A model generated the notes under the pieces. That model was given only the letters and a program-made list of their open reading frames with translations, was not told where the DNA came from and searched no databases. The position numbers were made by a program, and so were the translations under genes. From Deltaproteobacteria bacterium HGW-Deltaproteobacteria-13 (GTDB taxonomy: Bacteria; Desulfobacterota; Syntrophia; Syntrophales; Smithellaceae), in the NCBI GenBank assembly GCA_002840555.1, contig PHBJ01000004.1:21150-85149 (forward strand): a stretch of 64,000 nt of DNA, in the 5' to 3' direction. Position 1 is the first letter of the stretch, and the number at the start of each line of letters is the position of its first letter. Positions 43,126 to 60,218 of the stretch are shown here, in pieces.

Positions 43126-44103
43126 TTATTCTTTAACGGGTTTCCATGTTTTGTCGGGATTGTATGATTTCATCTTCTGAACCATTTTTGCCGTGTCCGG
43201 TCCGAGATTTTTCTCGTAGACCTTTCCCTGCTGATTGACGACAAAGGTCATCACGCCCGACTTGTTCCAATTTGAGGGAAACGCGACCAGGGCAAACCCG
43301 GCAACCATGTTGCCGTTGATAATGTAATTATAAGCACCGCCGGGTACATTCTTTCCCTGCCCCGTCAGTATCTTGAAATAATAACCATGAAAAGGCGATG
43401 GTTCGGCTTCCTTGAATAAAGCTCTGCTTTTCTTGTAACCCGCATGCCACGCCTGAGCCACAAGTTCACCCAGGGGGCTCATTTGCTCGCCTTGAGCGGC
43501 TCTCCAGAAAAGACCGTTTCTTTTGCCTTTGTCGCTGCGAAGTTTCTGCGCATACGCCAATACACCGTCGCCATCCCAGTCTTTAAGCACGTATTCGCGT
43601 TGCGCCTTCACGTAGGCGTGACAAACCAGTATGGCGGTAAGTTCATCTTCCCCGATACGGCGATTCATAATTTCTTCTTTACCCGCCCGGGTATCAAAGA
43701 GCCATTGATCATTATATTTTACGATGGGAACGGGAAAAGGCCAGTTCTCATTGCCGATGTGCAGGATCACTCTTGAATCATTTTCTTTCACGAGGCTGCT
43801 TTTTTCCGCAAGGTTATTGGCAAATTCAACAAATTCGATAGCATCCTGCACCTCATCGCCGGAGCGAAGGTCTTTCCCCGATGGGCCGAATATTTGATCG
43901 AGCGCAGCCGTGTCCTTTGCCTTGACGGCTTCGTTCAGGGCTTTTACGGCATCTTCAGGAGATGAGAATAATTTTTGCGATGACTCCGCCATTGCAGGCC
44001 CGCTCCAGGCAAAGACGAATATCGCTATGATAAAAAGCGCAGGGATAAAAACCATCCCACGCCATGAACGAAATACGGACTTTTGCTGAATTGTCTTCAT
44101 CAT
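43126..44103 (-). CDS. DUF2950 family protein
   Basis: F.SPEDAV.AL, IG...WPFPVPIV, RRIG.DE, YAQK..S..G..NGLFW, P.HGYYFKIL, SGVMTF.VN..G.VYEK.LG. Confidence 0.9.
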   Translation of the reverse strand: MMKTIQQKSVFRSWRGMVFIPALFIIAIFVFAWSGPAMAESSQKLFSSPEDAVKALNEAVKAKDTAALDQIFGPSGKDLRSGDEVQDAIEFVEFANNLAEKSSLVKENDSRVILHIGNENWPFPVPIVKYNDQWLFDTRAGKEEIMNRRIGEDELTAILVCHAYVKAQREYVLKDWDGDGVLAYAQKLRSDKGKRNGLFWRAAQGEQMSPLGELVAQAWHAGYKKSRALFKEAEPSPFHGYYFKILTGQGKNVPGGAYNYIINGNMVAGFALVAFPSNWNKSGVMTFVVNQQGKVYEKNLGPDTAKMVQKMKSYNPDKTWKPVKE

Positions 44104-44161
44104 ATTTTCCTTCCTTTCATTACTCATTTATTCCGTGTTTTTAGAAAATATACTGTCTGCG

Positions 44162-45646
44162 CTACCGGCGCCATTTACCTTTATTGTCGTCCTTTCCGGC
44201 AGGAGCATTGCCCCTATCGCCGTCCTTATTCGCAGGAGCGCCGCCTCTGGGTTCATTATTCCTCACGTCCTTTCTTTCAGGGACACTGATCTTTGCCGCG
44301 GGAACATCGGCAGAACGCACCCTCTCACTGCTTTGGCGGCTGGCCTGACCGCGGAGGCTCTGGCCTCTGGCCTCACTTGCTCCTCTGTAACCGCCAAAGG
44401 TAACCGATGGTGTTTTGGGAGGCTGGGCGACTTCGGGAACAGGACGGGTCTGAGACGTTCCCCTGCTGACATCTGAAGCCGGCCGTTCCGTTCGTTGAAA
44501 AATACCTTTATCTCCTCCGGGGCGGACACGCGTGGTTTCCTTACCGACAACGGGAGCCGGTTGTTGCGGCCGTTGATTAATTTCGATGGTTCGCGGAGCA
44601 GGACGTTGGCCGGCATCCGGAACAGTTATTGACGGTTGCTTTTTAATATCCCGGGGAGGTGCCGCCGGCTTTGAAAAAACGCCGTCACGGGTTTCTTTGC
44701 CGCGATCGCCGAAAGGACGCTTATCTTCCGCGGGACCGAATACCTTTGGCAAAGGTTTGGAAGGCATTCCCTTTGTGGTCCTTCCCCTGATTTCGGACAT
44801 GCGTGAATTCATTCCGGAGCCGGGACGAATGCCGGGACGCGCTGTTCTGTAGCTTTCAGGACTGCCATGTGACGCATCATGTCTCCAGTTTTTATTGATA
44901 AAAGGCCTGCTTTTTTGAACATACACATTATTCACGTGAACATAAGGCCTGGCGTGATCGACCCAGCCGGGACGCTTCCAGCCATGATAAATAACATGAT
45001 GCTGACCCCAATCGAAATCCATGGTCAGCCAGCCCCCGATCATCAAACCGACGCTGAACGTAATGAAAGGCTCGCTGCCGGCATAATATCTTTCGTAATA
45101 GACAACTGAAGGATCATAAGATGGAACATAAATATACTGTGGCTGGGCCGGAACGATCTCAATGTAATTTCCGACAATAATGATAGTCTGTCTGTTATTG
45201 CTTTCCAGATTGCCGGCATCTCTTGCCTGCCATCGGAGCCTTTGGATTGAGCTTGTTACATCTTCCGGCTGACTAAGAAAAGCATCTCCCAGATCGGCAG
45301 TCCAATCCCCGTATTCCGCCATCATTTTCAAAACATCCGGATAATGGGCAACGGCTTTGACGGATTCGTCCCAATTTTGCCAGTCAATTTCTGAAACCGA
45401 ACCGCCGTAATTCAGCCAATCATAAGCATCGGCAATTTCCTCCGTATACGTGGAAGCAGGCAGCATCTGGGCCAGGAGCGGGTCGGGATAGAGAGCGATG
45501 GGCGCCAGTAAATCATCAAGCTCCTGTTCAGTAAATAATGGCTGGGAGGATGGGTACATCTCCTCCGCCCGGGCCTTGGTTGATACAAGAGCCAAAAGGC
45601 AAACAACAAAAATAAGCAGACAACATTTTATGCTGTTCTTATTCAT
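44162..45646 (-). CDS. DUF3300 family protein with low-complexity C-terminus
   Basis: LLAPIALYPDPLLAQML.ASTY, WD.SVKA, LGDAFL.Q, IQRLR..A...GNL, YVP.YDP..VY. Confidence 0.9.
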   Translation of the reverse strand: MNKNSIKCCLLIFVVCLLALVSTKARAEEMYPSSQPLFTEQELDDLLAPIALYPDPLLAQMLPASTYTEEIADAYDWLNYGGSVSEIDWQNWDESVKAVAHYPDVLKMMAEYGDWTADLGDAFLSQPEDVTSSIQRLRWQARDAGNLESNNRQTIIIVGNYIEIVPAQPQYIYVPSYDPSVVYYERYYAGSEPFITFSVGLMIGGWLTMDFDWGQHHVIYHGWKRPGWVDHARPYVHVNNVYVQKSRPFINKNWRHDASHGSPESYRTARPGIRPGSGMNSRMSEIRGRTTKGMPSKPLPKVFGPAEDKRPFGDRGKETRDGVFSKPAAPPRDIKKQPSITVPDAGQRPAPRTIEINQRPQQPAPVVGKETTRVRPGGDKGIFQRTERPASDVSRGTSQTRPVPEVAQPPKTPSVTFGGYRGASEARGQSLRGQASRQSSERVRSADVPAAKISVPERKDVRNNEPRGGAPANKDGDRGNAPAGKDDNKGKWRR

Positions 45647-45857
45647 AAGCTAACTCCTTCCTCTTTTTGTCCGTAGATTTCAAGTATATACCGGTTACTC
45701 TTACAAACAACATGCTAAATTATAGAATATCGGGAAACAATGTCAATCAGTATTATTAAGAGGCGAAAACAGAAAAATAACATTTCACAACAATATTATT
45801 GAATATTTCCGTTTTGGCGTATTGCTCTATGGCTATTCATCCGCTGATAAATATATA

Positions 45858-45886
45858 TTGACAATAGAACGATCGTTCTATATCTT
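45858..45886 (+). promoter_or_regulatory. Sigma-70 promoter with SOS-type operator in the spacer
   Basis: TTGACA (45858) - 17 nt - TATCTT (45881); spacer holds the perfect palindrome TAGAACGATCGTTCTA (GAAC-N4-GTTC) upstream of dinB. Confidence 0.75.
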
Positions 45887-45957
45887 CTTTTTGAAAAGCT
45901 GATGTATTTTTGTATTTCCTGATGATCAAAATTAACAAGCTCTAAAGAAGTTTCTTT

Positions 45958-46206
45958 ATGACCGAACAATTATTCAGCCTCCGTTCCTGGCCGCGGGCGA
46001 TTACCCATATCGACGGCGACGCGTTTTTCACTTCCTGTGAAGAAGCCATTCACCCGGAGTTGAAAGGCAAAGCGCTCATTACCGGCGGAGAACGCGGCAT
46101 TGTCGCCTGCGCCAGTTATCCGGCCAAGGAACTGGGCATCAAGCGCGGCGTCTCTTTGCAGGAGGCTCGAAAAATTTTCCCCGGATTGATTAATAAAACT
46201 AACTAA
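45958..46206 (+). pseudogene. dinB: DNA polymerase IV, 5' fragment
   Basis: HIDGDAFF.SCE, ELKGK, GIV..ASY.AK..GIKRG; similarity stops near 46190 where the sequence turns AT-rich. Confidence 0.88.
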
Positions 46207-46754
46207 CAATTAGCAAAGCAATCTTCGTTAAATAAAGGTGTTCCAGAAGGTTTAATCCATTCAGATACACTAATATCAATTTGGTCGTCTGTTTTTCTCT
46301 GTTTGGCTTTTTTATCAAGCAACATGTGTTTTAGAAATCTAATTCCCTCATGTACTACTTTCCCCGTTTTGTAATCAGCGTTTAAGATAAATATCAATCT
46401 TAAATGCTTATCACAACCAGAAGATATTAAATCTTTGGAGTTTTCCCATTTAGAATATTCTTGTGGAGTTACTGACAGAAGTTCTGCCATTTCTTTACTT
46501 TTTAACCCAAGCTCTTTTCTTATATATATAATCTCTTGTGCAGATAAATAACCTTTACTACATATAATTGATTTTCCAATAAGAAGATGCAGTTCTTCAA
46601 TGTTTGGTATTTCTGGTGCTTCTTCTCCGCACTTACAGCACTTATACTGAATTATTCCATGCAAATATACATTATTTAGGCCACTCTCCTTATATTGATA
46701 TGGTTTGTCTTTTATGGCTTCTAAATCTCCTCCGCAAACCCAGCATTTATTCAT
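46203..46754 (-). CDS. MqsA/YgiT-type zinc-finger + HTH antitoxin
   Basis: CWVCGG...YKESGL.NV.L.GI...C.KCGE, then HTH (IRKELGLKSKEMAELLSVTPQEYSKWEN). Confidence 0.85.
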   Translation of the reverse strand: MNKCWVCGGDLEAIKDKPYQYKESGLNNVYLHGIIQYKCCKCGEEAPEIPNIEELHLLIGKSIICSKGYLSAQEIIYIRKELGLKSKEMAELLSVTPQEYSKWENSKDLISSGCDKHLRLIFILNADYKTGKVVHEGIRFLKHMLLDKKAKQRKTDDQIDISVSEWIKPSGTPLFNEDCFANC

Positions 46755-47047
46755 TTTACTCCCCCTTTAACTGTGATGATAACCATCTTTCTCGAGCTGA
46801 TATTTAATTCGATCACTACTCCTCCGGGATGTCCCTCTAAATCATTTCCCATAAAAGTATAACATCTATGATCGTCATTTAATTCTTTTTTTGTGATCTT
46901 CCCATTCTTTAAGATATTTTTAACGTCTGCCATAGAATAACTACGACTCGACATTTGACTTCTTGCATGTTTAGATGGAATCACATATCCGTATTCCAAC
47001 GTTTCTTTAATAATATCAATTATATCTTTGTCAGAAAGATCATCCAT
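46751..47047 (-). CDS. DUF4258 family protein (putative toxin)
   Basis: SKHARSQM..R.Y...DV..IL..G, G.DLEG, VIITV; overlaps the antitoxin start (ATGA). Confidence 0.8.
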   Translation of the reverse strand: MDDLSDKDIIDIIKETLEYGYVIPSKHARSQMSSRSYSMADVKNILKNGKITKKELNDDHRCYTFMGNDLEGHPGGVVIELNISSRKMVIITVKGGVK

Positions 47048-47422
47048 TAATGATTTTCTAGCATACTAGTTCTAGGATTTCAAGCAAATAGTTAATTTAT
47101 AATTAACTATTTATCTAATTTAGATATATCAGACAAACATATATTAATCTATGATTAATATAGTGAGTAGTTAGAGGAATGGAATAGCAAGCGAAAAATA
47201 TTTTTGTCCTAGTAAAAAGTTATCCCTCTCAATTGATAATATCAATGAAGAGGGATAAACAAGTCACTTAGGGTATTATTCCCCAGAAAGGTCAAGTTTT
47301 GACTTTTTGTCTGATTAATTTCAGCCAGTGGGACCAAGTCAATAATTGACTTGGTCAGTAAGATCGCACTATTGAATAACTATGTTCAATTTCTGAACAT
47401 AGGGGAAATTAGACCGCCCTTA

Positions 47423-47441
47423 TTCAAACTGACCCACTACC
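47423..47441. mobile_element. Probable isolated terminal inverted repeat of an IS1-family-like element
   Basis: TTCAAACTGACCCACTACC; read inward it is GGTAGTG..., fitting the IS1-family GGnnnTG end consensus; sits exactly where the putative dinB tail resumes. Confidence 0.5.
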
Positions 47442-47442
47442 A

Positions 47443-47604
47443 AAATTCGGGAAGCACACCCTGCATCTGGGCAGCTCTCACCTTATCGAAGAATTGGGCA
47501 AAGGCCGCCGCGGCAAGCCTACCACCCGCGAACAAACACAATTAAAAGGTGAAACACGCCGCCGCCATTTGGGACTGCCGCTGATTCATGTCAAAACCAA
47601 ATAA
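47443..47604 (+). pseudogene. dinB: Probable DNA polymerase IV 3' fragment
   Basis: Frame absent from the ORF track: KFGKHTLHLGSSHLIEELGKGRRGKPTTREQTQLKGETRRRHLGLPLIHVKTK*, resembling a DinB C-terminal K(F/Y)G tail; host-like composition returns here. Confidence 0.6.
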
Positions 47605-49763: not shown

Positions 49764-50013
49764 AAGTGAGTTGTGCTATAACTTAAAGTATTTTCTATTT
49801 CAAGTAAAAAAGTTCTTATAATCCTTTGCGTCTATCAGGTATTGTACATTGTTCCAATCAGCCTCTTACAATGAGCACGTGAATATTTTTGTCATTATGG
49901 ATAACCCCATAGGAAACAATGCCCAGAACTGTGGCCGATAAGGCGCTCCTTCCATGGGAGCCCATAGGGGACGGGCTGTCCCCTATAGATGCCTTCGTCT
50001 TACTTCTTGCGAA

Positions 50014-50436
50014 TTACTTTTTACGCGTCATGGTGCCAACTGCCACGACACTATCTGTGGCAGTTGAATGACGATATATTATGTTGATTTTGTCGTTGCT
50101 GATCTGACCTTCCAAAAAACCATCTTCATCTGCCTGATATAAACTCTTGTTGTCCATGGCAATTACTGCAACGAATTTTTCCGTGGCTCGCGGCGATTTG
50201 AATATCCCGTGCAAAACCCTTCCCTGCTGTTTGGTTACAATCCACTCGGCTTTGATGGTGCTGAATTCTCCTCTGTGGTGGGTCTTTGCTCCGTGAGCAG
50301 CACTCTTGAGAATGACACCCCCTTCAGACTGTACTGTCCATGTTCCTACCAGATTGGGAATGCCGTATTCTGCAAAGCAGATCGCCGTTCCCAGTAAAAA
50401 TGCCAGCATAGTAAAACCGATCACAATCTTTTTCAT
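50014..50436 (-). CDS. Secreted hypothetical protein (small, beta-rich)
   Basis: Signal peptide, PNLVGTW; AGGAG RBS. Confidence 0.7.
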   Translation of the reverse strand: MKKIVIGFTMLAFLLGTAICFAEYGIPNLVGTWTVQSEGGVILKSAAHGAKTHHRGEFSTIKAEWIVTKQQGRVLHGIFKSPRATEKFVAVIAMDNKSLYQADEDGFLEGQISNDKINIIYRHSTATDSVVAVGTMTRKK

Positions 50437-50471
50437 ATAAAGTCTCCTTTCCCCGAGAAATTTACGTTAAG

Positions 50472-52265
50472 TTAATTGAGTATTCCTAAACTCTTCATCT
50501 TCGCCTTCATGGCCGGGCTCAATTGCTTGACAAGCTCCGCATTGTACGAACCGGTCGGCATGGACTTTATAGTCGGATCATTCGTTGGATTCCACCTGGC
50601 AGTCGTATCCCAGGTTTCGACGATCTGTGCCGCCGCTATGGCATATTTACGTGATGCCGCCGCCGGCGTTCCGTCCTGAACTGCCGGATCAATATCAGTC
50701 GCAACAATGGAAATTGAATAGTCGCTGTTGAGATAAATCGCAAAAGTACGGAACTGCTGGGGGAAATCCCGAAGCGACGGAGTTTCGATCTGCCAGAAAC
50801 CTTTTTCCGGAGCGCCCGCAGGATCAGGGGAGATAAAGGCTTTCACGGTACTTAAATGACGATGCCCCGAGAGCCAGGCGAGCAGATTCGGATGGCTTTG
50901 AAGTTCATCAATCAAACCTTGTAGGGTTACGGCATTTTGCGGATTGAGCCACCAGCCCATTTCGGAATTAGGCGCCGTCACTTCGACGTTAATCGGTATA
51001 TGCGCGGCGATTATCATGAGCTGGCCGGCGGAATCACCCTCAGCCAGTTCTTTTTTCAGCCAGGCCCAGCGTGCCTTGTCCAGAAAGCCATGCCCATGAA
51101 TGTCGGCAGAGCCATCATCTTCTTTTTGGGTATCGTCGAGGACGATAACCTTGATTGGTATATTCGACTTCGGCACGAAGCTGTAACAGGCAAAGCCATT
51201 CGCGGCGTCGGTCAGGTTGAAACCATGACCGGCAGGATGGGAAGAGGTATTAAAAAATTCGTTCAACCACTCCGTCCTCAAAAGCGAACGCCTATCCGGA
51301 TCGGCGGCAACCTTCGGCGCGCTGCTGAAATTTCCGACAGGTCCGGCCTTGATAATGTCACCGTAGGGAGTCGAGCCGTCGAATACGCCCATATAGTAAT
51401 CACGGTTATTGATTATAGCCGGGTTGGCGAGAATATCTCCCGTGGCGAAAACTTCATCGCTGATGAAGGATTGCCGCAGGTCCTTGCGCAGGCTATAGTC
51501 CACGGGAATTGAGCCCATCCAGAAATGATCGTGGTTGCCTAGAGCCTGATACCAGGGAATCGTCTTATCCAGCCCTGCCGCTTTGTAAGATTTCTGATAA
51601 TCGATGGTGTCGTATCCCAGATGAGCGCCGGAGGAGGGCTCGATGACCTTGCCGTCAAGGACATCGATATACCACCTCAGTTCATTGTACTGAGTGGAGT
51701 TGCAGGTATCGCCCAGAGAGAGGCCGAAATCAAACGGATTTGCCTTATTGTCTTTATTGTGCAGGGCGTTTACCGTCTGAACCGCGGCGTCAAGGACATG
51801 CGTTGTAAACATCATAATCCCTGAATACAAAGATGCACCGACCGGCATTTTGGGATGCAGGCGTTGAAGATAAATCAACTGGTTGGGAGATTCTTTGTCG
51901 GTGATATGAATGTCTGATATCGTAAAAAAATTCAAAAGTTTTGTTTTTCTCGTGTCTGCCGGACTGTTATATCCAACCGGCATGATATCGAGCCGCTTGT
52001 CGTAGGGCAGCCCCGGGCCGTACGTCCAGTTTCCATAGCCGTATTGACTGTATTTGGAAATTTCCCAAAGATTAATCGCAGTCGTTGGTGTCGGGTCGGG
52101 CTTGATGGTCCTCTGGAGGGTCGTTTGAACATCGGAAGCAATCGGATATTCTTCGGACTGACTTTCATTTCTGACGATTGATTTTGAACACGCCGATAAA
52201 GAGAAAATCAGTATTCCCGTGAAAAAAACTAAGCAGAACTTTTTGAACTCATACGATGGTCTCAT
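50472..52265 (-). CDS. Lipoprotein metallophosphoesterase (TIGR03768-like)
   Basis: Lipobox LSAC; SDIHITDKESP, LGD..N..QYNELRW, GNHD, H.P, GHRH, SLRDFPQQ. Confidence 0.85.
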   Translation of the reverse strand: MRPSYEFKKFCLVFFTGILIFSLSACSKSIVRNESQSEEYPIASDVQTTLQRTIKPDPTPTTAINLWEISKYSQYGYGNWTYGPGLPYDKRLDIMPVGYNSPADTRKTKLLNFFTISDIHITDKESPNQLIYLQRLHPKMPVGASLYSGIMMFTTHVLDAAVQTVNALHNKDNKANPFDFGLSLGDTCNSTQYNELRWYIDVLDGKVIEPSSGAHLGYDTIDYQKSYKAAGLDKTIPWYQALGNHDHFWMGSIPVDYSLRKDLRQSFISDEVFATGDILANPAIINNRDYYMGVFDGSTPYGDIIKAGPVGNFSSAPKVAADPDRRSLLRTEWLNEFFNTSSHPAGHGFNLTDAANGFACYSFVPKSNIPIKVIVLDDTQKEDDGSADIHGHGFLDKARWAWLKKELAEGDSAGQLMIIAAHIPINVEVTAPNSEMGWWLNPQNAVTLQGLIDELQSHPNLLAWLSGHRHLSTVKAFISPDPAGAPEKGFWQIETPSLRDFPQQFRTFAIYLNSDYSISIVATDIDPAVQDGTPAAASRKYAIAAAQIVETWDTTARWNPTNDPTIKSMPTGSYNAELVKQLSPAMKAKMKSLGILN

Positions 52266-52371
52266 AAAACTCCTCCTTTTACTATATGCTTAAATGTTTA
52301 TTATCTTCGCTTTTCTATCAATTAATCAAAAATCGTTACCTATTTTACTCCTAAGTGGTGCGCATTGAGAA

Positions 52372-53829
52372 TCAGAATTGAGGAGCCGCGGCCGGCAGGG
52401 CCGTAGAATCGATTCCTTCGCACAGCGCGTTGTTCACGGTCAGATTTCCCTGGGCGTCCAGCTTCACCGTCCAGATCGTATCGTAGTCGCTATGCGGCCA
52501 AAAGAGCGCCGGGACCGGATCGCTGCCGCCATAGCTCTGAAGGAGATAAGTGATCAGCGGCGGATAGTGTTCATGCTCCCACGCCAGCAGCACAGTTTGA
52601 TTGGAGAGATTGCCGCCGGTAAAAAGAAAGTCGCTGGTGGCTTTGGCTACACCCGGATCGGTCGCCTGCCCGATATAGAAGCTCGATACCAGATAATAGG
52701 GCAGATTATTGGCGATGGCATAGGGCAGCACCGTTAATGAGGGCCTGACATAGGAAACACTGAAGTCAGCGGCCAGGGTGAACGACTGCGCGGGGTCGAT
52801 GGCATAAACCACGGTGGGACTGGGTTGACCCCGCAGAGCGCTGGGCAGAAAGTTGGGAAGGGACAGCGCGCGCCATTGCCCCGCACCGACAAAGTTGCCG
52901 TCTTCAAAACTGCTCGACGGATGCGCTTCCGCGTGCCGGATCAGGTAAACCGTTTGGTTGGTGTTGGCTCCCGCCGGAATTTTGACGCCGTTCACCCCAT
53001 CGATCAGTGTGTAGCTGAAATAGTCCTGCTTCGTGCAAGCTGCGTTGACGATCGGCGGCGGGGGCAGCACCGGGTAAGTGGCGGGCGGATTCAGTTTGCT
53101 GTCGAAGGCAGCCAGGCTGGCGAAACCCTTCGGTGTAATAGAGATCACATAGACATAATTTGTGCCCATGTAGGCAGCGGGAAGATTCAGGTTATACCCC
53201 CCGGCCGTTTTGATATTTGTCAGCAGGCCGCTGATGGTTTCCCAGGGCGCCGAGAAGACATAAAAGCCCGGCTGATTTGAGTTGATGATACGGGTTACCA
53301 GGGCAATATTGTTTTCGTGCGCGTCGTTGAAGGCCAGCCCCTGAGCGCCGGGGATGTATGGACTGGGCTCAACAACACCGACGGGCGCGTCCCCCGGCGC
53401 ATACGCCGTATTGATCGGATAGCTGTTGGCGGTTGTATCTTGTATGGTGATCTGGTTGAGAAGGGCAAACTGCTGAATGAACCCGATTGCCGCCATATCA
53501 GGATAATTGTTGGCGGTCTGCAAATGCGTCATAGGCGCGAGCGCGTAAATGCCGGTTACATTGTTTGTCCCCAGCAGATGCGTTTTCAGATACGTGGCCA
53601 TGAGAAGCGAGCGTTGTAGTCCTTGACTGGTAAGGTTTGCCGTGTCGGGATTGATGTCGCCGGGTGTCTGGTAAGCCAAATCCGGGCTTACCACAAAGAT
53701 AAGATTGATGTTGTCGGCGGAAAGCGCAGCATTTATATTGGAACCGGAACTGCCTTCACATCCTGCAAACAGCGTCAGGACAAGAATCAGGAACAACGAC
53801 CATACAAAGGAAATTCTTTTCATGTTCAT
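52372..53829 (-). CDS. Lipoprotein with histidine-phosphatase-like domain(s)
   Basis: Lipobox FAGC; C-terminal half has IRHAE...GQWRA...RP..T..P...AWEH; N-terminal half looks like a degenerate copy. Confidence 0.65.
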   Translation of the reverse strand: MNMKRISFVWSLFLILVLTLFAGCEGSSGSNINAALSADNINLIFVVSPDLAYQTPGDINPDTANLTSQGLQRSLLMATYLKTHLLGTNNVTGIYALAPMTHLQTANNYPDMAAIGFIQQFALLNQITIQDTTANSYPINTAYAPGDAPVGVVEPSPYIPGAQGLAFNDAHENNIALVTRIINSNQPGFYVFSAPWETISGLLTNIKTAGGYNLNLPAAYMGTNYVYVISITPKGFASLAAFDSKLNPPATYPVLPPPPIVNAACTKQDYFSYTLIDGVNGVKIPAGANTNQTVYLIRHAEAHPSSSFEDGNFVGAGQWRALSLPNFLPSALRGQPSPTVVYAIDPAQSFTLAADFSVSYVRPSLTVLPYAIANNLPYYLVSSFYIGQATDPGVAKATSDFLFTGGNLSNQTVLLAWEHEHYPPLITYLLQSYGGSDPVPALFWPHSDYDTIWTVKLDAQGNLTVNNALCEGIDSTALPAAAPQF

Positions 53830-53850
53830 AATCCTCTCTTTTTGTGAACA

Positions 53851-55305
53851 TTAATGGGAGTTCACGCAATCGATTAAGCCTTGTTCGTCCATATGGCCTA
53901 TGCCGCACCGGTAAACCGGCCAGGTCTTATCGGTAATAGGATTAAAAGTCCCGGTGACGGGAATCGTGTAATTATGTCCGGAAAAATAGTGCTCTCTGTA
54001 AAGCTGTTGTTTTGCATTGTCCGTGGCGAGCTCCGGATAAAGTTGCCACAGAGAATCGTTCAGAAAACCATGCAGGAGATACGCCGTCGAAAAGGTATAA
54101 TAGATGTTAAACTGTTCGGGGTTAGCAGCGAGGTCATAGTTCAGGGATGTGTAGTCGGTCGCTTTGAAAGTATCGCCGGAAATCGTGAAGATCTTAAATG
54201 CGGGGTTGTTGCCAAAGTACGGAGCTATGCCTGGCGTTGTGACAGCCGGAAGACCGCGTGACACGATACGGTATTCGTCCATATGCGTATGCGCGGTAAA
54301 CATCTGGGTGATAAGGCCCGGATACCCTGAAAGTATGTCCAGAAAATGTTTTTGATAGTCCTGGTTCCACATCATGACGGCGGATGTAATGTGACCGTTG
54401 GCATCGACATTCTGGGCGGTTGAATATTTATCCGCTCCGGGAGGTATATGCATTAAGAGCCACACTTTTTTGCCGGCAGCCTGGGCTTGAGCGAGTTGTG
54501 AATCAAACCAGGCAAGCTCAGCGTCTGCGGCGCTCTTTAAGGCATCACCAAAATCATAGTTAAACATGACCGTATTGAGTCCTATCACCATCAAATTTGT
54601 TCCGGGCATGTTTGCGGAATAATATCCCCCTGTCGTGAAGGTATTCAGAAATGTCTGATGATCCGCAATGCCGTTCAAAAAATTTGTGTAATAAAGTTCC
54701 GCCGTATTGGAAAGAAAATCGGGCTCCGGCAGAGCGCCTATGTATGAATCGGCATTGCCAACGACGAACATGACGGGAATATCTCCGACGGTCGATCTCA
54801 CCTGCTCCATAAAAAAGGTAACTGTCTTGTCGGCAAAGGTCTTCATGGCGGCAACGGCAACAACGTCGGCTAAAATGTCTGCATCGTCCGGAACCGGCAC
54901 GCCGAGGTTCCCGTAATACAGTTCAAAAAAAGTTTTCGGAAAGTTATGCCCGATAATGTCGCCGGTAAAAATGATAAACGGACTCACTCCCAGGTTCCAC
55001 TTGATGCCCGAGAGCGTCAGAGCAAGCAGGGGATAGTTGGTATCGGCGCCCCATACCGCGGGCGCTGTTATTTTCGATGTCTGAAAAATAACCGCCCACT
55101 GGCCGGCATCCGCCGCGACAAGCGCCGGGAAAAGAGACGGGTCATAAAAAGGATTAAAATGAACATCCGAAAAAACAACCACGGAAAAGTTATCGGTGGC
55201 AGTGTTTGTTCCGTTGCCGGTACCTTTGCATCCTGCTGAAGAGAAAATCAGCATGCTCATTAAAAAGACTACCCAGAACTTTTTGAATTCAAAAGATGTC
55301 TTCAT
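53851..55305 (-). CDS. Lipoprotein metallophosphoesterase, acid sphingomyelinase-like
   Basis: Lipobox SAGC; SDVH, TGD..GH, GNAD, HIPPG, HTHMDE, P..GNNPAF. Confidence 0.85.
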   Translation of the reverse strand: MKTSFEFKKFWVVFLMSMLIFSSAGCKGTGNGTNTATDNFSVVVFSDVHFNPFYDPSLFPALVAADAGQWAVIFQTSKITAPAVWGADTNYPLLALTLSGIKWNLGVSPFIIFTGDIIGHNFPKTFFELYYGNLGVPVPDDADILADVVAVAAMKTFADKTVTFFMEQVRSTVGDIPVMFVVGNADSYIGALPEPDFLSNTAELYYTNFLNGIADHQTFLNTFTTGGYYSANMPGTNLMVIGLNTVMFNYDFGDALKSAADAELAWFDSQLAQAQAAGKKVWLLMHIPPGADKYSTAQNVDANGHITSAVMMWNQDYQKHFLDILSGYPGLITQMFTAHTHMDEYRIVSRGLPAVTTPGIAPYFGNNPAFKIFTISGDTFKATDYTSLNYDLAANPEQFNIYYTFSTAYLLHGFLNDSLWQLYPELATDNAKQQLYREHYFSGHNYTIPVTGTFNPITDKTWPVYRCGIGHMDEQGLIDCVNSH

Positions 55306-55405
55306 GAAACGCATCCTTCTTTATTCTATCCATTAAATACCCTTTCTATTTGATGAGGCCGTTCCGGTACACACGATTGGTGATCAATGTCTTCAGCTCA
55401 TCCTC

Positions 55406-58400
55406 TCAGTCGTCGTCGCCATCATGCCGGACCTTTGGCGCCCTGTTCTTGTCAAACAAGGCTGATAATTTGCTGACCCGGGGCTTAGGCATCTTTGCGT
55501 TTGGACCCCTGGCATCTTTCCAGAGGACCTCATTGAGGAGTCGGTACGGAGCAGCATCGGCAACTTTCCAGTTCATCTTGCTTGAGAGAACGGCCAGGCG
55601 CAGTCGGGGATCATTGGAAGCATACGACTCGATACTCGGATTTACTTCGCCAATGACGTCCCGCGGCGGCAGTATGGCAGTGTATGCCGCGCTGTTGTCC
55701 GGAGCCGTGTCCCAGCCACCCATGATGGGGTTGGAGAAGTGGTCGTACTGGCTCATGGGAGATAAGCCGAGCAGAAGCTCTATACTCTTCAACACGCTGT
55801 TCGTGTCGTAGAAACGAGAATCCACGGTCCCCCGTTTGATCCAGGGACTGATCACCTGGCAGAAGGAACGATGGGTATCGACGTGATCGTTGCTGAACTG
55901 GGCGTCGTCTTCTATGACAAAGATCACGGTGCTTTTCCAAATGGGGCTATGGCTCACGGCTTGCACCAGCTCACCCACGGCATAGTCATTGTCGGCCATC
56001 ATCGCCCTTGGAGAGCCATTTTTCGGATTTAGCCCCATGGTGTGATCCCGCATGAAGCGCACCATCATGAAAGCCGGAACGCTGTTGCCCGTGGGGTCCT
56101 GCTTTAACATCTCCTGGAACTCCCGGTTCCACTCCGAGAAACGGCTTGGCTGCGCTTGTCCTTGCGCTTTTATGGGCGAATTCAGGGATGCGTAGCAGCC
56201 TGTGCTCGGATTCCCATTCGGGCACGGCAGTGTCCCTGTCGTAAGTCCCAGGTCTGCGGCCTGGAAACCGTACTTTACCCAGGCGTCGCTATCGGCATAG
56301 TTGAAGTCAAACTTGCGGTAGTCATAGTCGCTCAATCCCGCAACCTGACCGGGGGGAGTCGGAATGTGTCCGGGAGGCGAGAGATTGGGCTTATTCGGAT
56401 AGTTGTCCGGTATCGATTGATAATTTTGCGGGTCCGATGGCGGCGGAGATGGCAACGTCTTTGCCGCGGCGCCCGACGACAGGAAGAAGCCGTAGTTGCG
56501 GTAGGTGAGCCCGGCCGCTTTGACGCCGTCCCAGATATATCCGCCCGGCGCTTCGGCAACATCCGGAATGGACGATGCGGGCTGGCAGGTGTTTGAAAGG
56601 CAGTTGTTATCCTGATCCCGGGCCGGGTAACCGCCTGTGACATAGCCGTTAACCTGTCCCTCGAAAGAATAATTGATTTCATACGTGGCCAGGGCCATCT
56701 GGTATATATAAGGGATGCTTTTAATGGTGAAAGCATTGGCCACACTTTGAGTGCACCATACCCAGCCTTCACCGCTCACCGGGGCATTGTTGTAAAAATT
56801 GTCCAGAAGGATGAAGCGCTCCGCCAGAGCGTGCTGGTTCGGGGTAATCTCCCGCCCGTAGATGGTCAGAGAGGGGTCCCCGTTACCCCGGGGCAGGTCG
56901 CCGAGAACCTGATCGTAGCCGCGGTTTTCCTTGATGATGTAAATCACATGCTTAATCTTGCCCGATTTGATGCCGATTCCGGCCAGCATTCTATCGGCAG
57001 AACTCCCCATTGCCGGCGTGTTCTGGTTGTTCAGGATCACTTGAGCCGTCGATGCAGCAAGAGAGGGCAAAGCCCGAGTCAGGTCAATTCGGGAGACGTT
57101 CCCCGGAATGGAATTCAGAACATAGCCGGGACCCGGAGCCGCCACCCATGCCGGGACGGGAGTGGCGTTAGTGTTGAATAACAGAACGTCGGGATTGAGA
57201 TAGTCAAGCTGGGGATTGGGGTTCATGGCCCTGGTTCCCCAACCGTTTACGACCAGCAGCGCCTTGCCATCCGGAGTGGCGGCAAGGGCCGTGGGGTACC
57301 ATCCCACCGGAATGTAGCCGTTCAACTGGTTTGTCCCCGCATCGATGACGCCGACCGCGTTGAAGTCGCCAAGCGATGCATACAAGGTCTTCTCGTCAGG
57401 AGAGAGTGCGAGGCCTGAAGGGGATACGCCGGGGAGACTGCTGACATTGGCCGGCCGCAGCAGCACTGTGGCTGTAACATTAAGCTGATCATTGACCACG
57501 TTAACCACCGATATTGTATCGCTCCCGGCATTGGCTATATACAAAAGGGTCTGTGCTTTATTGAGAAGCAGAGCCGAAGGATGCGTGAGGTTCGGGATTG
57601 TTGCGACCAGCGATATGTTGGCCGGGTCGGTCGTATTCAGGACATAGACGCAGCCGTCCCGCTGGCTGGCCACGTAGGCTCTGCTTGCATCCGATTTTGC
57701 GACTACAGCATACGGGAAAGAGGGCGTATTCGTGTTTGCCGCGTCGTTGAATGGGTAGAATCCAAGCCTTTTGCTGTCGCTTACACGATAGATTGAGAGC
57801 GTGGATGCCTGTTGATAGTTGGCCAGCAGATTGACGGAAAAGTAATTTGCCATAAAGATGTATCCGCTGGCAAAGGCAATGCCCGCCGGCTGATCAAGAG
57901 GCAAGTAAGAGAGAATACTAACCGGCGAAGGCTTGCCGGGGATGGTGCCTGTCGGCGTCTGCTGGGTGAGGGTTCCATCGGCGGCCAGTGTAAGCACGGC
58001 AACGGTGCCGTACGCTCCCTGGGCCGCATAGAGCGTGTAGGTGTTGTTATGCGGTGTCGGATCGAATGCGAGTCCATAAAAGAGCCCGCCGTTCGGTATG
58101 CTTGGATCGTCCGCGGGAAAGGAAAGCGAGCTTACGACTGCGCCGTCACTAACCCTCAATGTGCTCAGGCGCACATCCAGGCAACTGGACGTTGTGACGG
58201 CGTACCTGCCATCGGGGCTGATGACTATGTTCAATGGCATAACCCCGACCGGACCACTGGTTGTGCCCGCCGGCGTAATCCTCCGGCCGTTAACCAGAAT
58301 GTTGGAGGCCGATGGAGCGTTAGAACTGGAACTGCATCCGACGAAATAGACAGCACATAAGGCCGCCAGCGTGATTATTATAATTGTTCTTAAAAAGACT

Positions 58401-58435
58401 AAACAGAACTTTTTGCCTCCATAGAATGATTTCAT
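55406..58435 (-). CDS. Lipoprotein: YncE/YVTN beta-propeller + phosphoesterase (alkaline phosphatase superfamily)
   Basis: Lipobox FVGC; propeller repeats (GLALSPD, IPVGWYPT); HVIYIIKENR.YDQVLGD, DHT, DND.A.G, EDDAQ...DHVD.HR. Confidence 0.9.
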   Translation of the reverse strand: MKSFYGGKKFCLVFLRTIIIITLAALCAVYFVGCSSSSNAPSASNILVNGRRITPAGTTSGPVGVMPLNIVISPDGRYAVTTSSCLDVRLSTLRVSDGAVVSSLSFPADDPSIPNGGLFYGLAFDPTPHNNTYTLYAAQGAYGTVAVLTLAADGTLTQQTPTGTIPGKPSPVSILSYLPLDQPAGIAFASGYIFMANYFSVNLLANYQQASTLSIYRVSDSKRLGFYPFNDAANTNTPSFPYAVVAKSDASRAYVASQRDGCVYVLNTTDPANISLVATIPNLTHPSALLLNKAQTLLYIANAGSDTISVVNVVNDQLNVTATVLLRPANVSSLPGVSPSGLALSPDEKTLYASLGDFNAVGVIDAGTNQLNGYIPVGWYPTALAATPDGKALLVVNGWGTRAMNPNPQLDYLNPDVLLFNTNATPVPAWVAAPGPGYVLNSIPGNVSRIDLTRALPSLAASTAQVILNNQNTPAMGSSADRMLAGIGIKSGKIKHVIYIIKENRGYDQVLGDLPRGNGDPSLTIYGREITPNQHALAERFILLDNFYNNAPVSGEGWVWCTQSVANAFTIKSIPYIYQMALATYEINYSFEGQVNGYVTGGYPARDQDNNCLSNTCQPASSIPDVAEAPGGYIWDGVKAAGLTYRNYGFFLSSGAAAKTLPSPPPSDPQNYQSIPDNYPNKPNLSPPGHIPTPPGQVAGLSDYDYRKFDFNYADSDAWVKYGFQAADLGLTTGTLPCPNGNPSTGCYASLNSPIKAQGQAQPSRFSEWNREFQEMLKQDPTGNSVPAFMMVRFMRDHTMGLNPKNGSPRAMMADNDYAVGELVQAVSHSPIWKSTVIFVIEDDAQFSNDHVDTHRSFCQVISPWIKRGTVDSRFYDTNSVLKSIELLLGLSPMSQYDHFSNPIMGGWDTAPDNSAAYTAILPPRDVIGEVNPSIESYASNDPRLRLAVLSSKMNWKVADAAPYRLLNEVLWKDARGPNAKMPKPRVSKLSALFDKNRAPKVRHDGDDD

Positions 58436-58956
58436 AAAGCCCCCCTTAGGTTTTATTCCGAAAGTGGATTATCATCCGCTCCTGCAAAAAAAGCAATCAA
58501 AGAATACTCATACTTCACATGACTTTTTCTCCTCCCATTGGGCTGCCACTAAACACTGCGTAACCGGAACCACGCCGAATCAGGCAATGCCGGGCCATTT
58601 GTAAAAGGGGCTGATGGTTTCTACGAAAGACAATCACCATTGCTGCGGAATTTTTGAGGTTGCCGGGGAAACCGCAATAGAGGAGTGAAGTGCGGTTTCC
58701 CCGGACTATGTTACTGAAGTTAGTAATAATTACCGGCTCAGTGCGAAACCATACACAGTAGCCTTTCGCGATGGGATACCGTATCGAAACAGGCCACTGC
58801 ATCCGTTCAGATAATCAGCAAGTGAATACTCCGGTGCTGTTTATTTTTTTAGTCTGGTAAATTTCGATGATAAAGGCGACGCCGCTATTTTCGGGAACAT
58901 ACTGGAAACAGAAATTATCTGAACGATAATAATGCGGGTTTTTAAGACCAATTCCC

Positions 58957-58983
58957 CCGCCATCCCCCGTAAGAGGATGGCGG
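58957..58983 (-). terminator. Hairpin after thiolase, probable terminator
   Basis: CCGCCATCC/GGATGGCGG stem. Confidence 0.55.
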
Positions 58984-59024
58984 AAGAATTGCATAGAATT
59001 ACAGCTTGAGGCTAGAAGGGGCAA

Positions 59025-60218
59025 TTAAAGCATTTCATAAATAGCGGCAGCGCCCATTCCACCACCGATACACATGGAAACGATACCGCGTTTGCCGTTG
59101 CGACGTTTCAGTTCATGAAGCAGCTGAGCCGTCAATTTGGCACCGGTGCATCCCAGGGGATGACCCAGGGCAATCGCGCCGCCGTTGGGGTTAATGTCGC
59201 CTGCCCAATAACGGTCTTCGATACCGATCACGCGGCAGGAATAAATCGCCTGTGACGCAAAGGCTTCATTGATTTCAAAAACATCAATGTCTTTGTGCGT
59301 CAAACCAGCCATTTTCAATACTTTCGGAATAGCGTAAGCAGGACCAACACCCATTTCTTCCGCCCTGCAGCCGGCAACCGCATAATGGCTCAGTTTGGCG
59401 ATGGGTTTCAGTTTTAATGCTTTCGCCTTTTCTGCTGACATCAGCATGGAGAAAGCGGCGCCGTCTGTCATCTGTGAAGAGTTGGCAGCGGTACAATTTC
59501 CTCCCAGCCTGAAGGGTGATTTCAATTTACCCATATCCGCCAGGCTGACCGGCCATCTCACACCGTCATCCGTGTCAAAGGTGACTGTTTCACGAATGCG
59601 TTTACCGTCTTTCGTCTTGTATTTGAAAGCCTGAATGGGAATAATCTCCTCTTTGAATTTCCCGGCCTTGATGGCTTCATAAGCGCGGCGATTGCTTTCC
59701 ACGCCCATTTTATCCATATCTTCACGGGTAATATTATAATCCGCGGCCACATTTTCCGCCGTATTGCCCATGTTGATCCAAACATTGGGCATGCTGCCAT
59801 CAAATTTCCAATCCGGATTCGGACGCATGGCGGTACCACCCATGGGAATATGACTCATCGTTTCACAACCGCCGGCAATAATGATGTCCGACCAGCCGGC
59901 ACGAATCTTCGCTGTGGCATCGGCAATGGCCTGAACACCGGCTGAACAAAAACGGTTTACAGTCATGCCGGAGCATGTAATGGGCAAGCCCGCTCCCATA
60001 GCGAGAGTTCGTCCCAGAATCATGCCCTGCTCGGCTTCCGGAAACGCACAACCAACGATCAAATCATCAATGTCCGCCGGATCTACTTCCGGAACTTTTG
60101 CCAGCAGGCCTTTGACGACCTGGATACCATATGCATCAGATCTTGTTGCGGCAAGACCACCTCTTTTATATCTTCCACCGGCACTTCTTACCGATGCGAC
60201 AATGACAGCTTCACTCAT
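59025..60218 (-). CDS. fadA: Acetyl-CoA C-acyltransferase (thiolase)
   Basis: NRFCSAG, NEAFA, GHPLG, CIGGGMG. Confidence 0.93.
   Translation of the reverse strand: MSEAVIVASVRSAGGRYKRGGLAATRSDAYGIQVVKGLLAKVPEVDPADIDDLIVGCAFPEAEQGMILGRTLAMGAGLPITCSGMTVNRFCSAGVQAIADATAKIRAGWSDIIIAGGCETMSHIPMGGTAMRPNPDWKFDGSMPNVWINMGNTAENVAADYNITREDMDKMGVESNRRAYEAIKAGKFKEEIIPIQAFKYKTKDGKRIRETVTFDTDDGVRWPVSLADMGKLKSPFRLGGNCTAANSSQMTDGAAFSMLMSAEKAKALKLKPIAKLSHYAVAGCRAEEMGVGPAYAIPKVLKMAGLTHKDIDVFEINEAFASQAIYSCRVIGIEDRYWAGDINPNGGAIALGHPLGCTGAKLTAQLLHELKRRNGKRGIVSMCIGGGMGAAAIYEML

What the first reader, a model, noticed from the sequence alone, without database searches (positions are those of the whole stretch)
52201..58435. 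One homologous leader on three different phosphoesterases
Seen: the genes starting at 52265, 55305 and 58435 begin MRPSYEFKKFCLVFF, MKTSFEFKKFWVVFL and MKSFYGGKKFCLVFL. By hand count the DNA aligns ungapped and in register with the ATG: 52201-52265 vs 55241-55305 gives 51/65 identical, and 55261-55305 vs 58391-58435 gives 35/45, around the core CAGAACTTTTTG. The mature domains belong to different families (TIGR03768-like, sphingomyelinase-like, propeller + alkaline-phosphatase fold). The leaders are AT-rich while the 55406-58435 body is visibly GC-rich. Inference: either a host-made leader module was repeatedly grafted onto acquired enzymes, with the array growing by recombination at the leader, or KKFxxVF is a dedicated export/sorting signal for surface lipoproteins.
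Basis: partly seen in the sequence, partly recalled or inferred. Interest (0 to 1): 0.72.

Follow-up and report, generated by a model that had tools for sequence, protein, structure and literature searches.

The report
Shared leader cassette on phosphoesterase genes
Three unrelated secreted phosphate-releasing enzymes in a Smithella genome start with the same short export signal because that stretch, which belongs to one of the genes, was copied onto its neighbours by recombination, one of them a gene acquired from a distant bacterium.

Summary
The hand counts (51/65, 35/45) are exact. They exceed every one of 2346 pairs of lipoprotein starts in this genome (maxima 38/65, 29/45).

The shared piece is a 5' cassette: ribosome-binding site, sometimes 60-210 nt of upstream DNA, and the first 15-26 codons of a lipoprotein signal peptide.

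The cassette is native to the TIGR03768 metallophosphoesterase gene (P1, 50472-52265). P1 orthologues carry it in 10 other genomes of the order and in the 120 best database hits.

The acid-sphingomyelinase-like gene (P3) and the propeller-phosphoesterase gene (P4) carry it only in Smithella. Their relatives elsewhere have other leaders.

P4 is a clean chimera. Positions -96 to +46 match a P1 cassette. From +47 it matches Binatia and Actinomycetota homologues, which lack the leader.

Both flanks match a P1-only locus in a sister genome. The 6.1 kb P4-P3-P2 block therefore sits inside the P1 locus, between two leader copies.

The leader marks only this enzyme cluster, and it is less conserved than the mature P1 domain. 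It is not a general sorting signal.

The closest precedent is the Borrelia Erp/Elp shared-leader lipoprotein genes. I read this as a new variant of a known kind, of moderate interest.

The parts
50472..52265 (-). P1: TIGR03768-family metallophosphoesterase lipoprotein (597 aa); native owner of the leader
   Evidence: NCBIfam TIGR03768, 774 bits against a cut-off of 387. Orthologues at 71-83% identity in 10 other genomes of the order carry the same leader.
52186..52277 (-). Leader cassette copy on P1 (RBS, n-region, h-region, lipobox LSAC)
   Evidence: Local matches to other cassette copies span about -12 to +80. 51/65 identical to the P3 copy.
52372..53829 (-). P2: 485-aa lipoprotein of no Pfam/NCBIfam family, with a different leader here; possibly histidine-phosphatase-like
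   Evidence: No family hit. ESM Atlas nearest clusters are named histidine phosphatase / phosphoglycerate mutase, score 0.97-0.98, a lead only. GC at the 97th percentile. A P2 homologue elsewhere (P0261, 59% identity) does carry the KKF leader.
53851..55305 (-). P3: acid-sphingomyelinase-like (Metallophos) phosphodiesterase lipoprotein (484 aa)
   Evidence: PF00149. PDB SMPDL3A and ASM, E 6e-11. Relatives carry at least 4 other leader types.
55229..55317 (-). Leader cassette copy on P3
   Evidence: blastn match of the G016 P1 cassette, 82% over 89 nt. 51/65 identical to the P1 copy.
55406..58435 (-). P4: beta-propeller plus PF04185 phosphoesterase lipoprotein (1009 aa); the body is compositionally foreign
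   Evidence: GC 0.558, 98th percentile. 71-82% identical to homologues in records titled Binatia and Actinomycetota.
58390..58447 (-). Leader cassette copy on P4 (-12 to +46); the graft junction lies between 58390 and 58389
   Evidence: P4 aligns to the G016 P1 cassette from -96 to +46 (116/148). It aligns to the Binatia homologue only from +47 (298/357). 43/58 identical to the P1 copy.
58334..58389 (-). Inherited part of the P4 signal peptide (R-TIIIITLAALCAVYFVG-C)
   Evidence: Homologous to the h-region and lipobox of the Binatia and Actinomycetota homologues, which have a different n-region.
58436..58867 (-). Upstream flank of P4, syntenic with the upstream flank of the P1-only locus of sister genome G016
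   Evidence: blastn 69% over 495 nt, E 2e-33. 303 identical positions between 432 and 443 nt.
52278..58389 (-). 6.1 kb block (P4 body, P3, P2, intergenic DNA) that G000 has and the syntenic P1 locus of G016 lacks
   Evidence: G016:C6 locus 7980-8468 matches window 58867-58390. 8411-10197 matches window 52277-50491. 10617-10731 matches window 49966-49852.
49852..49966 (.). Downstream flank syntenic with the G016 P1 locus
   Evidence: blastn 87% over 115 nt.

Best explanation
The shared sequence is a 5' cassette. It comprises the ribosome-binding site, in some copies 60-210 nt of upstream DNA, and the first 15-26 codons of a lipoprotein (SPase II type) signal peptide.

It belongs natively to the TIGR03768 metallophosphoesterase gene P1. 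In the genus Smithella it has been copied by recombination onto neighbouring, non-homologous phosphoesterase genes: P3, P4, the TIGR03768 paralogue P1b, and elsewhere P2.

The first fusions must have been illegitimate joins. For P4 the join lies inside the signal peptide, after codon 15. For P3 it lies in the linker behind the lipobox Cys.

Once several copies existed, they served as portable homology for homologous recombination and gene conversion. That homogenises leaders within a genome, swaps upstream flanks, reorders the array and inserts blocks. In this window the P4-P3-P2 block sits between two leader copies inside the old P1 locus.

The likely functional effect, which is inferred and not shown, is that acquired enzymes receive a host-adapted translation start and lipoprotein export signal, and perhaps common regulation. 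P4 and P2 are the compositional outliers.

Shown here: common descent of the copies, the donor lineage, the junctions, the synteny.
Inferred: the recombination mechanism, the selective benefit, and that the enzymes serve phosphate scavenging.
For: 1. Common descent, not chance. Identity of 51/65 and 35/45 against background maxima of 38/65 and 29/45.

2. The donor is P1.
- Ten non-Smithella genomes of the order carry the leader exactly once, on the P1 orthologue. Two weaker profile hits there are unrelated proteins.
- No unrelated leader type appeared among the 120 best P1 hits at 76-89% identity.

3. The recipients.
- P4 homologues outside Smithella: 12 of the 16 N-termini read lack the KKF part. 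Eight of those 12, at 69-82% identity, keep a homologous h-region and lipobox.
- P3 relatives: 118 usable rows carry KKF 63, QLQ 24, MLK 21, other 8, Tat 2.

4. The P4 breakpoint. -96..+46 matches G016 P1 (116/148). +47..+398 matches the Binatia homologue (298/357). The 5' part has no similarity to Binatia.

5. Synteny of both flanks with the P1-only locus of G016.

6. Ongoing exchange.
- G043 P3 vs P1b: 93/106 identical from -8 to +98, with genome-specific variants.
- G016 P3 vs P1b: 99/130.
- Upstream sharing across gene types: G043_P3 vs G156_P1, -212..+77, 206/289; G016_P3 vs G004_P4, -197..+45, 179/244.
- For 7 of 13 Smithella leaders, the nearest leader sits on another gene type.

7. Leader turnover on nearly identical bodies. 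P0009 vs P0025: mature domain 427/443 identical, leader 15/41. The FastTree tree needs at least 36 leader-type changes where 4 is the minimum.

8. In 1.84 billion representatives, the leader profile hits 34 proteins: 20 P1-like, 4 P3, 1 P4, 3 P2, 6 with no match beyond the leader.

9. Logan contigs of 3 runs of one study, and of 1 run of a second study, bridge the gene junctions.

10. P4 and P2 lie at the 97th-98th GC percentile. P1 and P3 are typical of the genome.
Against: - Over the first 45 nt, mean leader identity is the same for same-genome/different-gene pairs (36.4/45), different-genome/same-gene pairs (36.9) and different/different pairs (36.2). Homogenisation within genomes is therefore episodic, not pervasive. 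The three copies in this window are only 74-78% identical, which means old events.
- All genomes are metagenome bins. The taxon labels of the Binatia and Actinomycetota contigs were not checked, and one P4 locus with the leader is titled Syntrophobacteraceae.
- The P3 tree is FastTree only. Recombination inside the mature domain would inflate the count of leader changes.
- No expression or localisation data exist for these genes in what I could search.
- The recombination mechanism and any benefit are inferred.
- The direction P1 to the others rests on distribution, not on a rooted test.
Confidence: 0.8

Rival explanations
1. The leader is kept on these enzymes because it is a dedicated targeting or sorting signal. 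It would be a special signal-peptide class, like YSIRK or ESPR, that routes this set of lipoproteins to a particular route or place.
For: The n-region motif (S-[FY]-E-[FY]-K-K-F) is longer and more patterned than the MKK-type starts of other lipoproteins of this genome. The leader has been attached repeatedly to members of one functional cluster: P1, P1b, P2, P3, P4.
Against: - It is found on no lipoprotein outside this enzyme cluster in 36 genus genomes or 151 order genomes.
- The part shared with P4 lies entirely upstream of the lipobox Cys, so it is cleaved off if processed. The residues after Cys differ (SKS, KGT, SSS).
- In P1 the leader is less conserved (0.75) than every 26-residue window of the mature part (mean 0.89).
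- Near-identical P3 bodies work with unrelated leaders.
- The hits that sources label Atribacter have Tyr in place of the lipobox Cys.
- No Pfam or NCBIfam signal-motif family hit.
- Identity at the DNA level and in the 5' region shows copying, not convergence.
Confidence: 0.08
2. The selected unit is a nucleic-acid element. The 5' UTR plus the first codons would form a cis-regulatory site on the mRNA or DNA, such as a target of a small RNA, an RNA-binding protein or a repressor. That site would put all these genes under one control, for instance phosphate starvation.
For: Similarity extends upstream of the ATG, by up to about 200 nt in some pairs. Upstream of G016_P3, G004_P4, G009_P4 and G020_P4 lie a conserved TTGACT-N17-TATAAA/CATATT promoter-like pair and an imperfect inverted repeat, TTGTCAATCnATTAACAA.
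Against: - No Rfam match in 50000-59200 at E up to 1, apart from two chance-level hits.
- The consensus fold of 18 cassettes has -0.17 kcal/mol and 0 of 6 pairs with compensatory change.
- At least two unrelated upstream types go with the same leader.
- The promoter-like block is not upstream of the three genes of this window.
- Promoter-like sites in the region are no more frequent than in shuffles: 7 against 8.0.
- No Pho regulator lies nearby.
Confidence: 0.1
3. Artefact. The repeated leaders caused mis-joins in the metagenome assembly, so the array and the chimeric P4 do not exist in one genome.
For: The genome is a 29-contig assembly, the relatives are metagenome bins, and repeats are classic mis-join sites.
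Against: - The copies in this window share no exact run long enough for a k-mer mis-join. The longest shared runs are about 14 nt.
- Logan contigs bridge the junctions: X1 record 8 covers 54579-58900 without a difference; X1 and X2 records cover 52050-52759; X5, from another study, covers 52044-52444 and 55163-55530.
- The same P4 junction is present in four further loci (L048-L051).
Confidence: 0.02

Closest known systems
Borrelia burgdorferi Erp genes (OspE-related, OspF-related, Elp = OspE/F-like leader peptide; 'upstream homology box' genes)
   Same: Lipoprotein genes whose leader peptides, and by the title of Marconi 1996 an upstream box, are shared while the mature proteins are unrelated. 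[quoted passage not shown] PMC12242104 (passages read) names the three subfamilies.
   Different: Those are host-interaction surface antigens on cp32 prophage plasmids of a pathogen. Here the genes are chromosomal hydrolases of at least four folds in a free-living anaerobe. The donor gene is identifiable. One recipient is a cross-phylum acquisition with a junction inside the signal peptide. Akins 1999 and Marconi 1996 were not held, so I saw only their titles in reference lists.
Staphylococcus aureus lpl tandem lipoprotein cluster (Tsuru and Kobayashi 2008, PMC2568036; abstract read)
   Same: [quoted passage not shown] Recombination at a repeated internal sequence rearranges a tandem array.
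   Different: The lpl genes are paralogues of one family that recombine at a central conserved region. Here the genes are non-homologous, and the only shared sequence is the 5' cassette.
Specialised signal-peptide motif classes (YSIRK, KxYKxGKxW, ESPR, Tat)
   Same: A recognisable N-terminal motif recurs on diverse exported proteins.
   Different: Those motifs are spread over many families and taxa and have a function in routing (recalled). This leader is confined to one gene cluster and is explained by copying. No such family was hit. A separate Tat-type leader is shared between a TIGR03768 paralogue and a P3 relative, 21/27 identical.
Integron-type capture of genes behind a common expression site
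   Same: Functionally analogous: different cargo genes end up behind a common 5' element in an array that gains and reorders members.
   Different: No integrase, no attC-like sites. The join lies inside the coding region. This is an analogy only.

Membership tests
Bacterial lipoprotein (SPase II) signal peptide | Positively charged n-region, hydrophobic h-region, lipobox ending in Cys | tested here: met
   By inspection. P1: MRPSYEFKK / FCLVFFTGILIFS / LSAC. P3...SAGC. P4...FVGC at residue 34. A G+LPP-like regex matched P1 only. The P4 leader is atypical, with two hydrophobic runs split by Arg16.
Bacterial lipoprotein (SPase II) signal peptide | Cleavage and lipidation at the Cys | not testable with these tools
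   No SignalP or LipoP available, and no experiment.
TIGR03768 metallophosphoesterase (P1) | Score above the NCBIfam cut-off over the full model | tested here: met
   774.3 bits against 387.4, model positions 1-496 of 547.
Calcineurin-like / acid-sphingomyelinase-like phosphodiesterase (P3) | Pfam PF00149 above the gathering score; sequence match to SMPDL3A/ASM structures | tested here: met
   25.8 bits against 21.5. PDB 5ebe and 5i81 etc., E 6e-11 to 5e-10. Substrate not tested.
PF04185 phosphoesterase (PLC / AcpA type) with N-terminal YVTN propeller (P4) | Pfam PF04185 above the gathering score; propeller repeats | tested here: met
   49.5 bits against 23, but only profile positions 250-355. 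TIGR02276 repeat 52.4 against 27.85. PDB acid phosphatase 2d1g, E 7e-6.
Erp/Elp-type shared-leader mosaic lipoprotein genes | Homologous leader (and upstream DNA) on mature proteins of unrelated sequence | tested here: met
Erp/Elp-type shared-leader mosaic lipoprotein genes | Sequence relationship to the Borrelia leaders; location on cp32 prophage plasmids | not tested
   No Borrelia sequence was compared. The organism and replicon differ, so this is 'works like', not membership.
Specialised signal motifs (YSIRK, KxYKxGKxW, ESPR, Tat) | Match to the family model, or a twin-arginine motif | tested here: not met
   No such family among the Pfam or NCBIfam hits at E up to 0.01. No RR motif in the three leaders.
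Known cis-regulatory RNA | Rfam match or a conserved structure with covariation | tested here: not met

The most novel reading that the evidence does not exclude
The cassette would be a selected, portable 'expression-and-export adaptor'. In Smithella, horizontally acquired phosphoesterases would be domesticated by fusion to the 5' region and lipoprotein leader of a resident gene. The leader copies would then act as the recombination sites through which the array gains, loses and reorders enzymes. That amounts to integron-like logic without an integrase, operating inside coding sequence. The same logic seems to run with other leader types: a Tat-type leader and the P2-type leader are also shared across these enzyme families.
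Probability: 0.3. Interest if true: 0.7.

Novelty: new variant of a known kind. Interest (0 to 1): 0.5.

Why it matters
This is an unusually clean natural example of how a bacterium makes a foreign secreted enzyme usable. The native start of the gene is replaced, to the base (+46/+47), by the translation start and export leader of a resident gene.

It also shows a signal-peptide-coding stretch acting as the homology along which a gene array is built and reshuffled.

For annotation, it warns that N-terminal similarity among exported proteins can reflect copying rather than function. It also warns that the leader and the body of one gene can have different histories.

For ecology, it points to a mobile, modular set of four to five surface phosphoesterases in syntrophic bacteria. 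These are plausibly for scavenging organic phosphate, which is not tested here.

Tried and rejected
- Word-indexed search with residues 1-40 of P1: one candidate only, uninformative.
- RNA runs: no RNA holder listed, so nothing can be said on expression.
- Structure of P2: AlphaFold2 on a 6-row alignment gave mean pLDDT 41.5. I did not use it and ran no fold search. Pfam at E up to 10 gave nothing for P2 or its 5 orthologues.
- Conserved RNA structure across the cassette: none. Rfam: none.
- Promoter and terminator scan of 50300-59100: counts no higher than in shuffles.
- Weak leader-profile hits checked and dismissed:
  - G024, a 1029-aa frame, has no similarity to P4.
  - G154 is a 492-aa frame with no similarity to P1-P6, and G057 is an ordinary lipoprotein.
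  - P0275 is a 1171-aa repeat protein matched internally.
- A -1 frameshift reading of the AAAAAG lysine codons: considered and dropped. The preceding base does not complete a slippery heptamer, and the zero frame is conserved.
- Literature phrases 'signal peptide swapping / replacement / exchange / shuffling' etc.: 125 papers hold a term. All 25 listed concern engineering or eukaryotic or viral proteins. I found no paper on natural leader exchange with these phrases, and other wording may exist.
- TIGR03768 did not occur in any of the 12 papers listed.
- My first two leader classifiers were faulty and were corrected before the tree.
Full report
**What is there**

Four lipoprotein genes lie head to tail on the minus strand:
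- P4: 55406-58435, 1009 aa.
- P3: 53851-55305, 484 aa.
- P2: 52372-53829, 485 aa.
- P1: 50472-52265, 597 aa.

Their families:
- P1 is a TIGR03768 metallophosphoesterase, 774 bits against a cut-off of 387. No solved relative was found by sequence.
- P3 is a calcineurin-like phosphoesterase. Its nearest solved relatives are SMPDL3A and acid sphingomyelinase.
- P4 joins a YVTN/lactonase-type propeller to a PF04185 phosphoesterase domain.
- P2 hits no family.

The array sits between a TetR / FadB-like / thiolase group and unrelated genes. No Pho regulator is nearby. Record titles of near relatives name the genus Smithella.

Similarity starts at the ribosome-binding site. It ends near +75 for P1 vs P3 and at +45 against P4.

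I took 69 lipoprotein-type N-termini of the same 3.51 Mb genome as background, giving 2346 pairs. The maxima are 29/45 and 38/65, and the means are 14.6 and 20.5.

The 12-nt core occurs only at these three starts and at one unrelated site. The peptide motif occurs on no other credible gene of the genome.

**Whose leader is it?**

I built a 29-column profile of the leader and searched all 36 Smithella genomes held.
- It gave 16 strong matches (E up to 5e-6) in 8 genomes. The next best hit had E 0.003.
- The 16 frames are always the same enzyme types: P1 (5), a 665-aa TIGR03768 paralogue P1b (2), P3 (5) and P4 (4).

In 151 genomes of the order:
- The profile hits once per genome in 10 non-Smithella genomes, always the P1 orthologue at 71-83% identity.
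- Two weaker hits are unrelated proteins.
- Deeper TIGR03768 paralogues at 49-63% identity carry Tat-type or other leaders.

Among the 120 best database hits to P1 (76-89% identity) I saw no unrelated leader type. 109 of 121 rows passed a full-length test, and the others were truncated or extended gene calls. Hits that sources label Atribacter are among them.

The leader is therefore the native signal peptide of P1.

**P3 and P4 received it**

P4 homologues outside Smithella:
- I read 16 N-termini.
- Four have the leader: L048-L051, of which three are titled Smithella and one Syntrophobacteraceae.
- Twelve lack the KKF part.
- Eight of those twelve, at 69-82% identity, are in records titled Binatia, Actinomycetota classes, Desulfobacteraceae and Acidimicrobium. 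They start with a different n-region of the M-L-x-R-L-W-x-Y-Y type, followed by an h-region and lipobox homologous to residues 17-34 of P4.

At the DNA level:
- P4 of this window aligns to a Binatia homologue from +47 to +398, 298/357.
- It aligns to the P1 cassette of sister genome G016 from -96 to +46, 116/148.
- The 5' part has no similarity to Binatia.

The join lies between 58390 and 58389. It leaves a hybrid 34-residue signal peptide.

P4 and P2 are compositional outliers, at GC 0.558 and 0.553, the 98th and 97th percentiles of 1147 long ORFs. P1 and P3 are typical of the genome.

For P3:
- An orthologue in another family of the order has an ordinary unrelated leader. One Smithella orthologue has a Tat-type leader.
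- 118 usable relatives (2 truncated rows dropped) carry five leader classes: KKF 63, QLQ 24, MLK 21, other 8, Tat 2.
- On a FastTree tree of the mature domains, the classes need at least 36 changes where 4 is the minimum. The KKF class alone needs at least 20, of which 11 are forced by well-supported branches.
- Sister pairs make the point directly. P0009 and P0025 are 427/443 identical in the mature part and 15/41 in the leader.

**The array was built at the leader**

The P1 locus of G016 holds P1 alone. Both of its flanks match this window:
- Its upstream 443 nt plus the first 46 coding nt match 58867-58390 (69%, E 2e-33).
- Its P1 from -12 onwards matches 52277-50491 (86%).
- Its downstream DNA matches 49966-49852 (87%).

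Relative to that locus, G000 has 6.1 kb (58389-52278: P4 body, P3, P2) lying between two copies of the -12..+46 stretch. The copies are 43/58 identical.

Gene order differs among genomes:
- G000: P4-P3-P2-P1.
- G043: P1b, a 339-aa lipoprotein, P3, P2, P1.
- G016: P3-P2-P1b, with P1 elsewhere.
- G009: P3, P2, a 298-aa lipoprotein, then P4.

**Exchange continues and includes upstream DNA**

- In G043, P3 and P1b are 93/106 identical from -8 to +98. They share genome-specific variants that run past the Cys into the linker.
- In G016 the same two genes share a different linker, 99/130.
- G043_P3 shares -212..+77 with the P1 of another genus (G156), 206/289.
- G016_P3 shares -197..+45 with G004_P4, 179/244.
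- G000_P4 shares -96..+46 with G016_P1.

At least two unrelated upstream types occur with the same leader.

Over the first 45 nt, leaders cluster neither by gene type (36.9/45) nor by genome (36.4/45). Unrelated pairs score 36.2. For 7 of 13 leaders, the nearest one sits on another gene type. Leader and body thus have separate histories, but homogenisation within genomes is episodic.

**How wide is it?**

A 32-column leader profile against 1.84 billion representatives found 34 proteins at E up to 0.001, many of them short fragments. I removed the first 26 residues where the protein was longer than 60 aa and compared what remained:
- 20 match P1.
- 4 match P3.
- 1 matches P4.
- 3 match P2. One of these is a full-length P2 homologue, P0261, at 59% identity.
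- 6 match none of the six window proteins used as subjects (P0001-P0006).
- One of those six is an internal false hit.

So the leader marks this enzyme cluster, on at least four unrelated mature families, and nothing else that I could find.

Other leaders are shared across the same families too:
- A Tat-type leader on a TIGR03768 paralogue and on a P3 relative, 21/27 identical.
- The P2-type leader on a P3 relative, 16/24 identical.

**Rivals**

A dedicated sorting signal is unlikely.
- The leader is confined to this cluster.
- The part shared with P4 is cleaved off if the signal peptide is processed, and the residues behind Cys differ.
- In P1 the leader is less conserved (0.75) than any 26-residue window of the mature part.

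A cis-regulatory RNA gets no support from Rfam or from a consensus fold of 18 cassettes, which gave -0.17 kcal/mol and no covariation. A promoter-like pair and an inverted repeat are conserved upstream of some copies in other genomes.

Assembly error is unlikely.
- Logan contigs bridge the junctions in runs X1, X2 and X4. In X5, from a second study, they bridge the P2-P1 and P4-P3 junctions only.
- The P4 junction recurs in four other loci.

**Known parallels**

The nearest precedent is the Borrelia Erp group. [quoted passage not shown] The founding papers were not held.

What differs here:
- The genes are metabolic hydrolases of unrelated folds in a free-living anaerobe.
- The donor gene is identifiable.
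- One recipient is a cross-phylum acquisition.
- The join is base-resolved and lies inside a signal peptide.

**Verdict**

The finding is real and well explained. It is a new variant of a known kind, and I score its interest at 0.5.

Not shown: the recombination mechanism, any selective benefit, expression, export, or the substrates of the enzymes.

Noticed in passing
window 52372-53829 (-): P2 has no Pfam or NCBIfam family. ESM Atlas places it next to clusters named histidine phosphatase / phosphoglycerate mutase (0.97-0.98). It has an invariant R-H-x-E-A-H stretch near residue 298, and its GC is at the 97th percentile. It may be a fourth phosphoesterase of the array.
   Followed up: partly
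L081:1225-1404 (G176) and protein P0073: A Tat-type lipoprotein leader (GVTRRDFMKYS...) is shared, 21/27 identical, between a TIGR03768 paralogue and a P3-family protein. The G020 P3 orthologue has it too. This is a second, independent leader shared across these two enzyme families.
   Followed up: partly
protein P0059 vs window 53758-53829 (-): A P3-family protein carries the P2-type leader: 16/24 identical to the P2 leader of this window, including the C-E-G behind the lipobox.
   Followed up: partly
L012 about 8330-8430; L110 about 860-960; L014 and L016 upstream of P4: Upstream of G016_P3, G004_P4, G009_P4 and G020_P4 lies a conserved TTGACT-N17-TATAAA/CATATT pair, followed by an imperfect inverted repeat TTGTCAATCnATTAACAA. 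This looks like a promoter plus operator. It is not present upstream of the three genes of this window.
   Followed up: no
proteins P0233, P0234, P0238, P0239, P0241-P0245 (P0239 labelled Atribacter by sources): These P1 homologues keep the KKF leader but have Tyr where the lipobox Cys should be (…SLPGYSKA…). They would not be lipidated there.
   Followed up: no
protein P0255 (71 aa, metagenome): A short ORF made of a KKF leader joined to the last ~22 residues of P2. It looks like a deletion product of recombination between a leader and the array, or an assembly artefact.
   Followed up: no
window 55323-55392: A contig of run X5 (another study) skips 68 nt of the P4-P3 intergenic region. The spacer in front of the P3 cassette is therefore polymorphic among related strains.
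   Followed up: no
window 45500-47500: A low-GC stretch (0.33-0.40) holds an MqsA-like antitoxin/HTH gene (46203-46754). It lies next to a DUF3300/DUF2950 pair (43126-45646).
   Followed up: no
L050 (record titled Syntrophobacteraceae bacterium) vs L049 (Smithella sp.): The P4 loci of these two records have identical N-terminal regions and the same percent identity to P4. This suggests the same population binned under two names, or very recent transfer.
   Followed up: no
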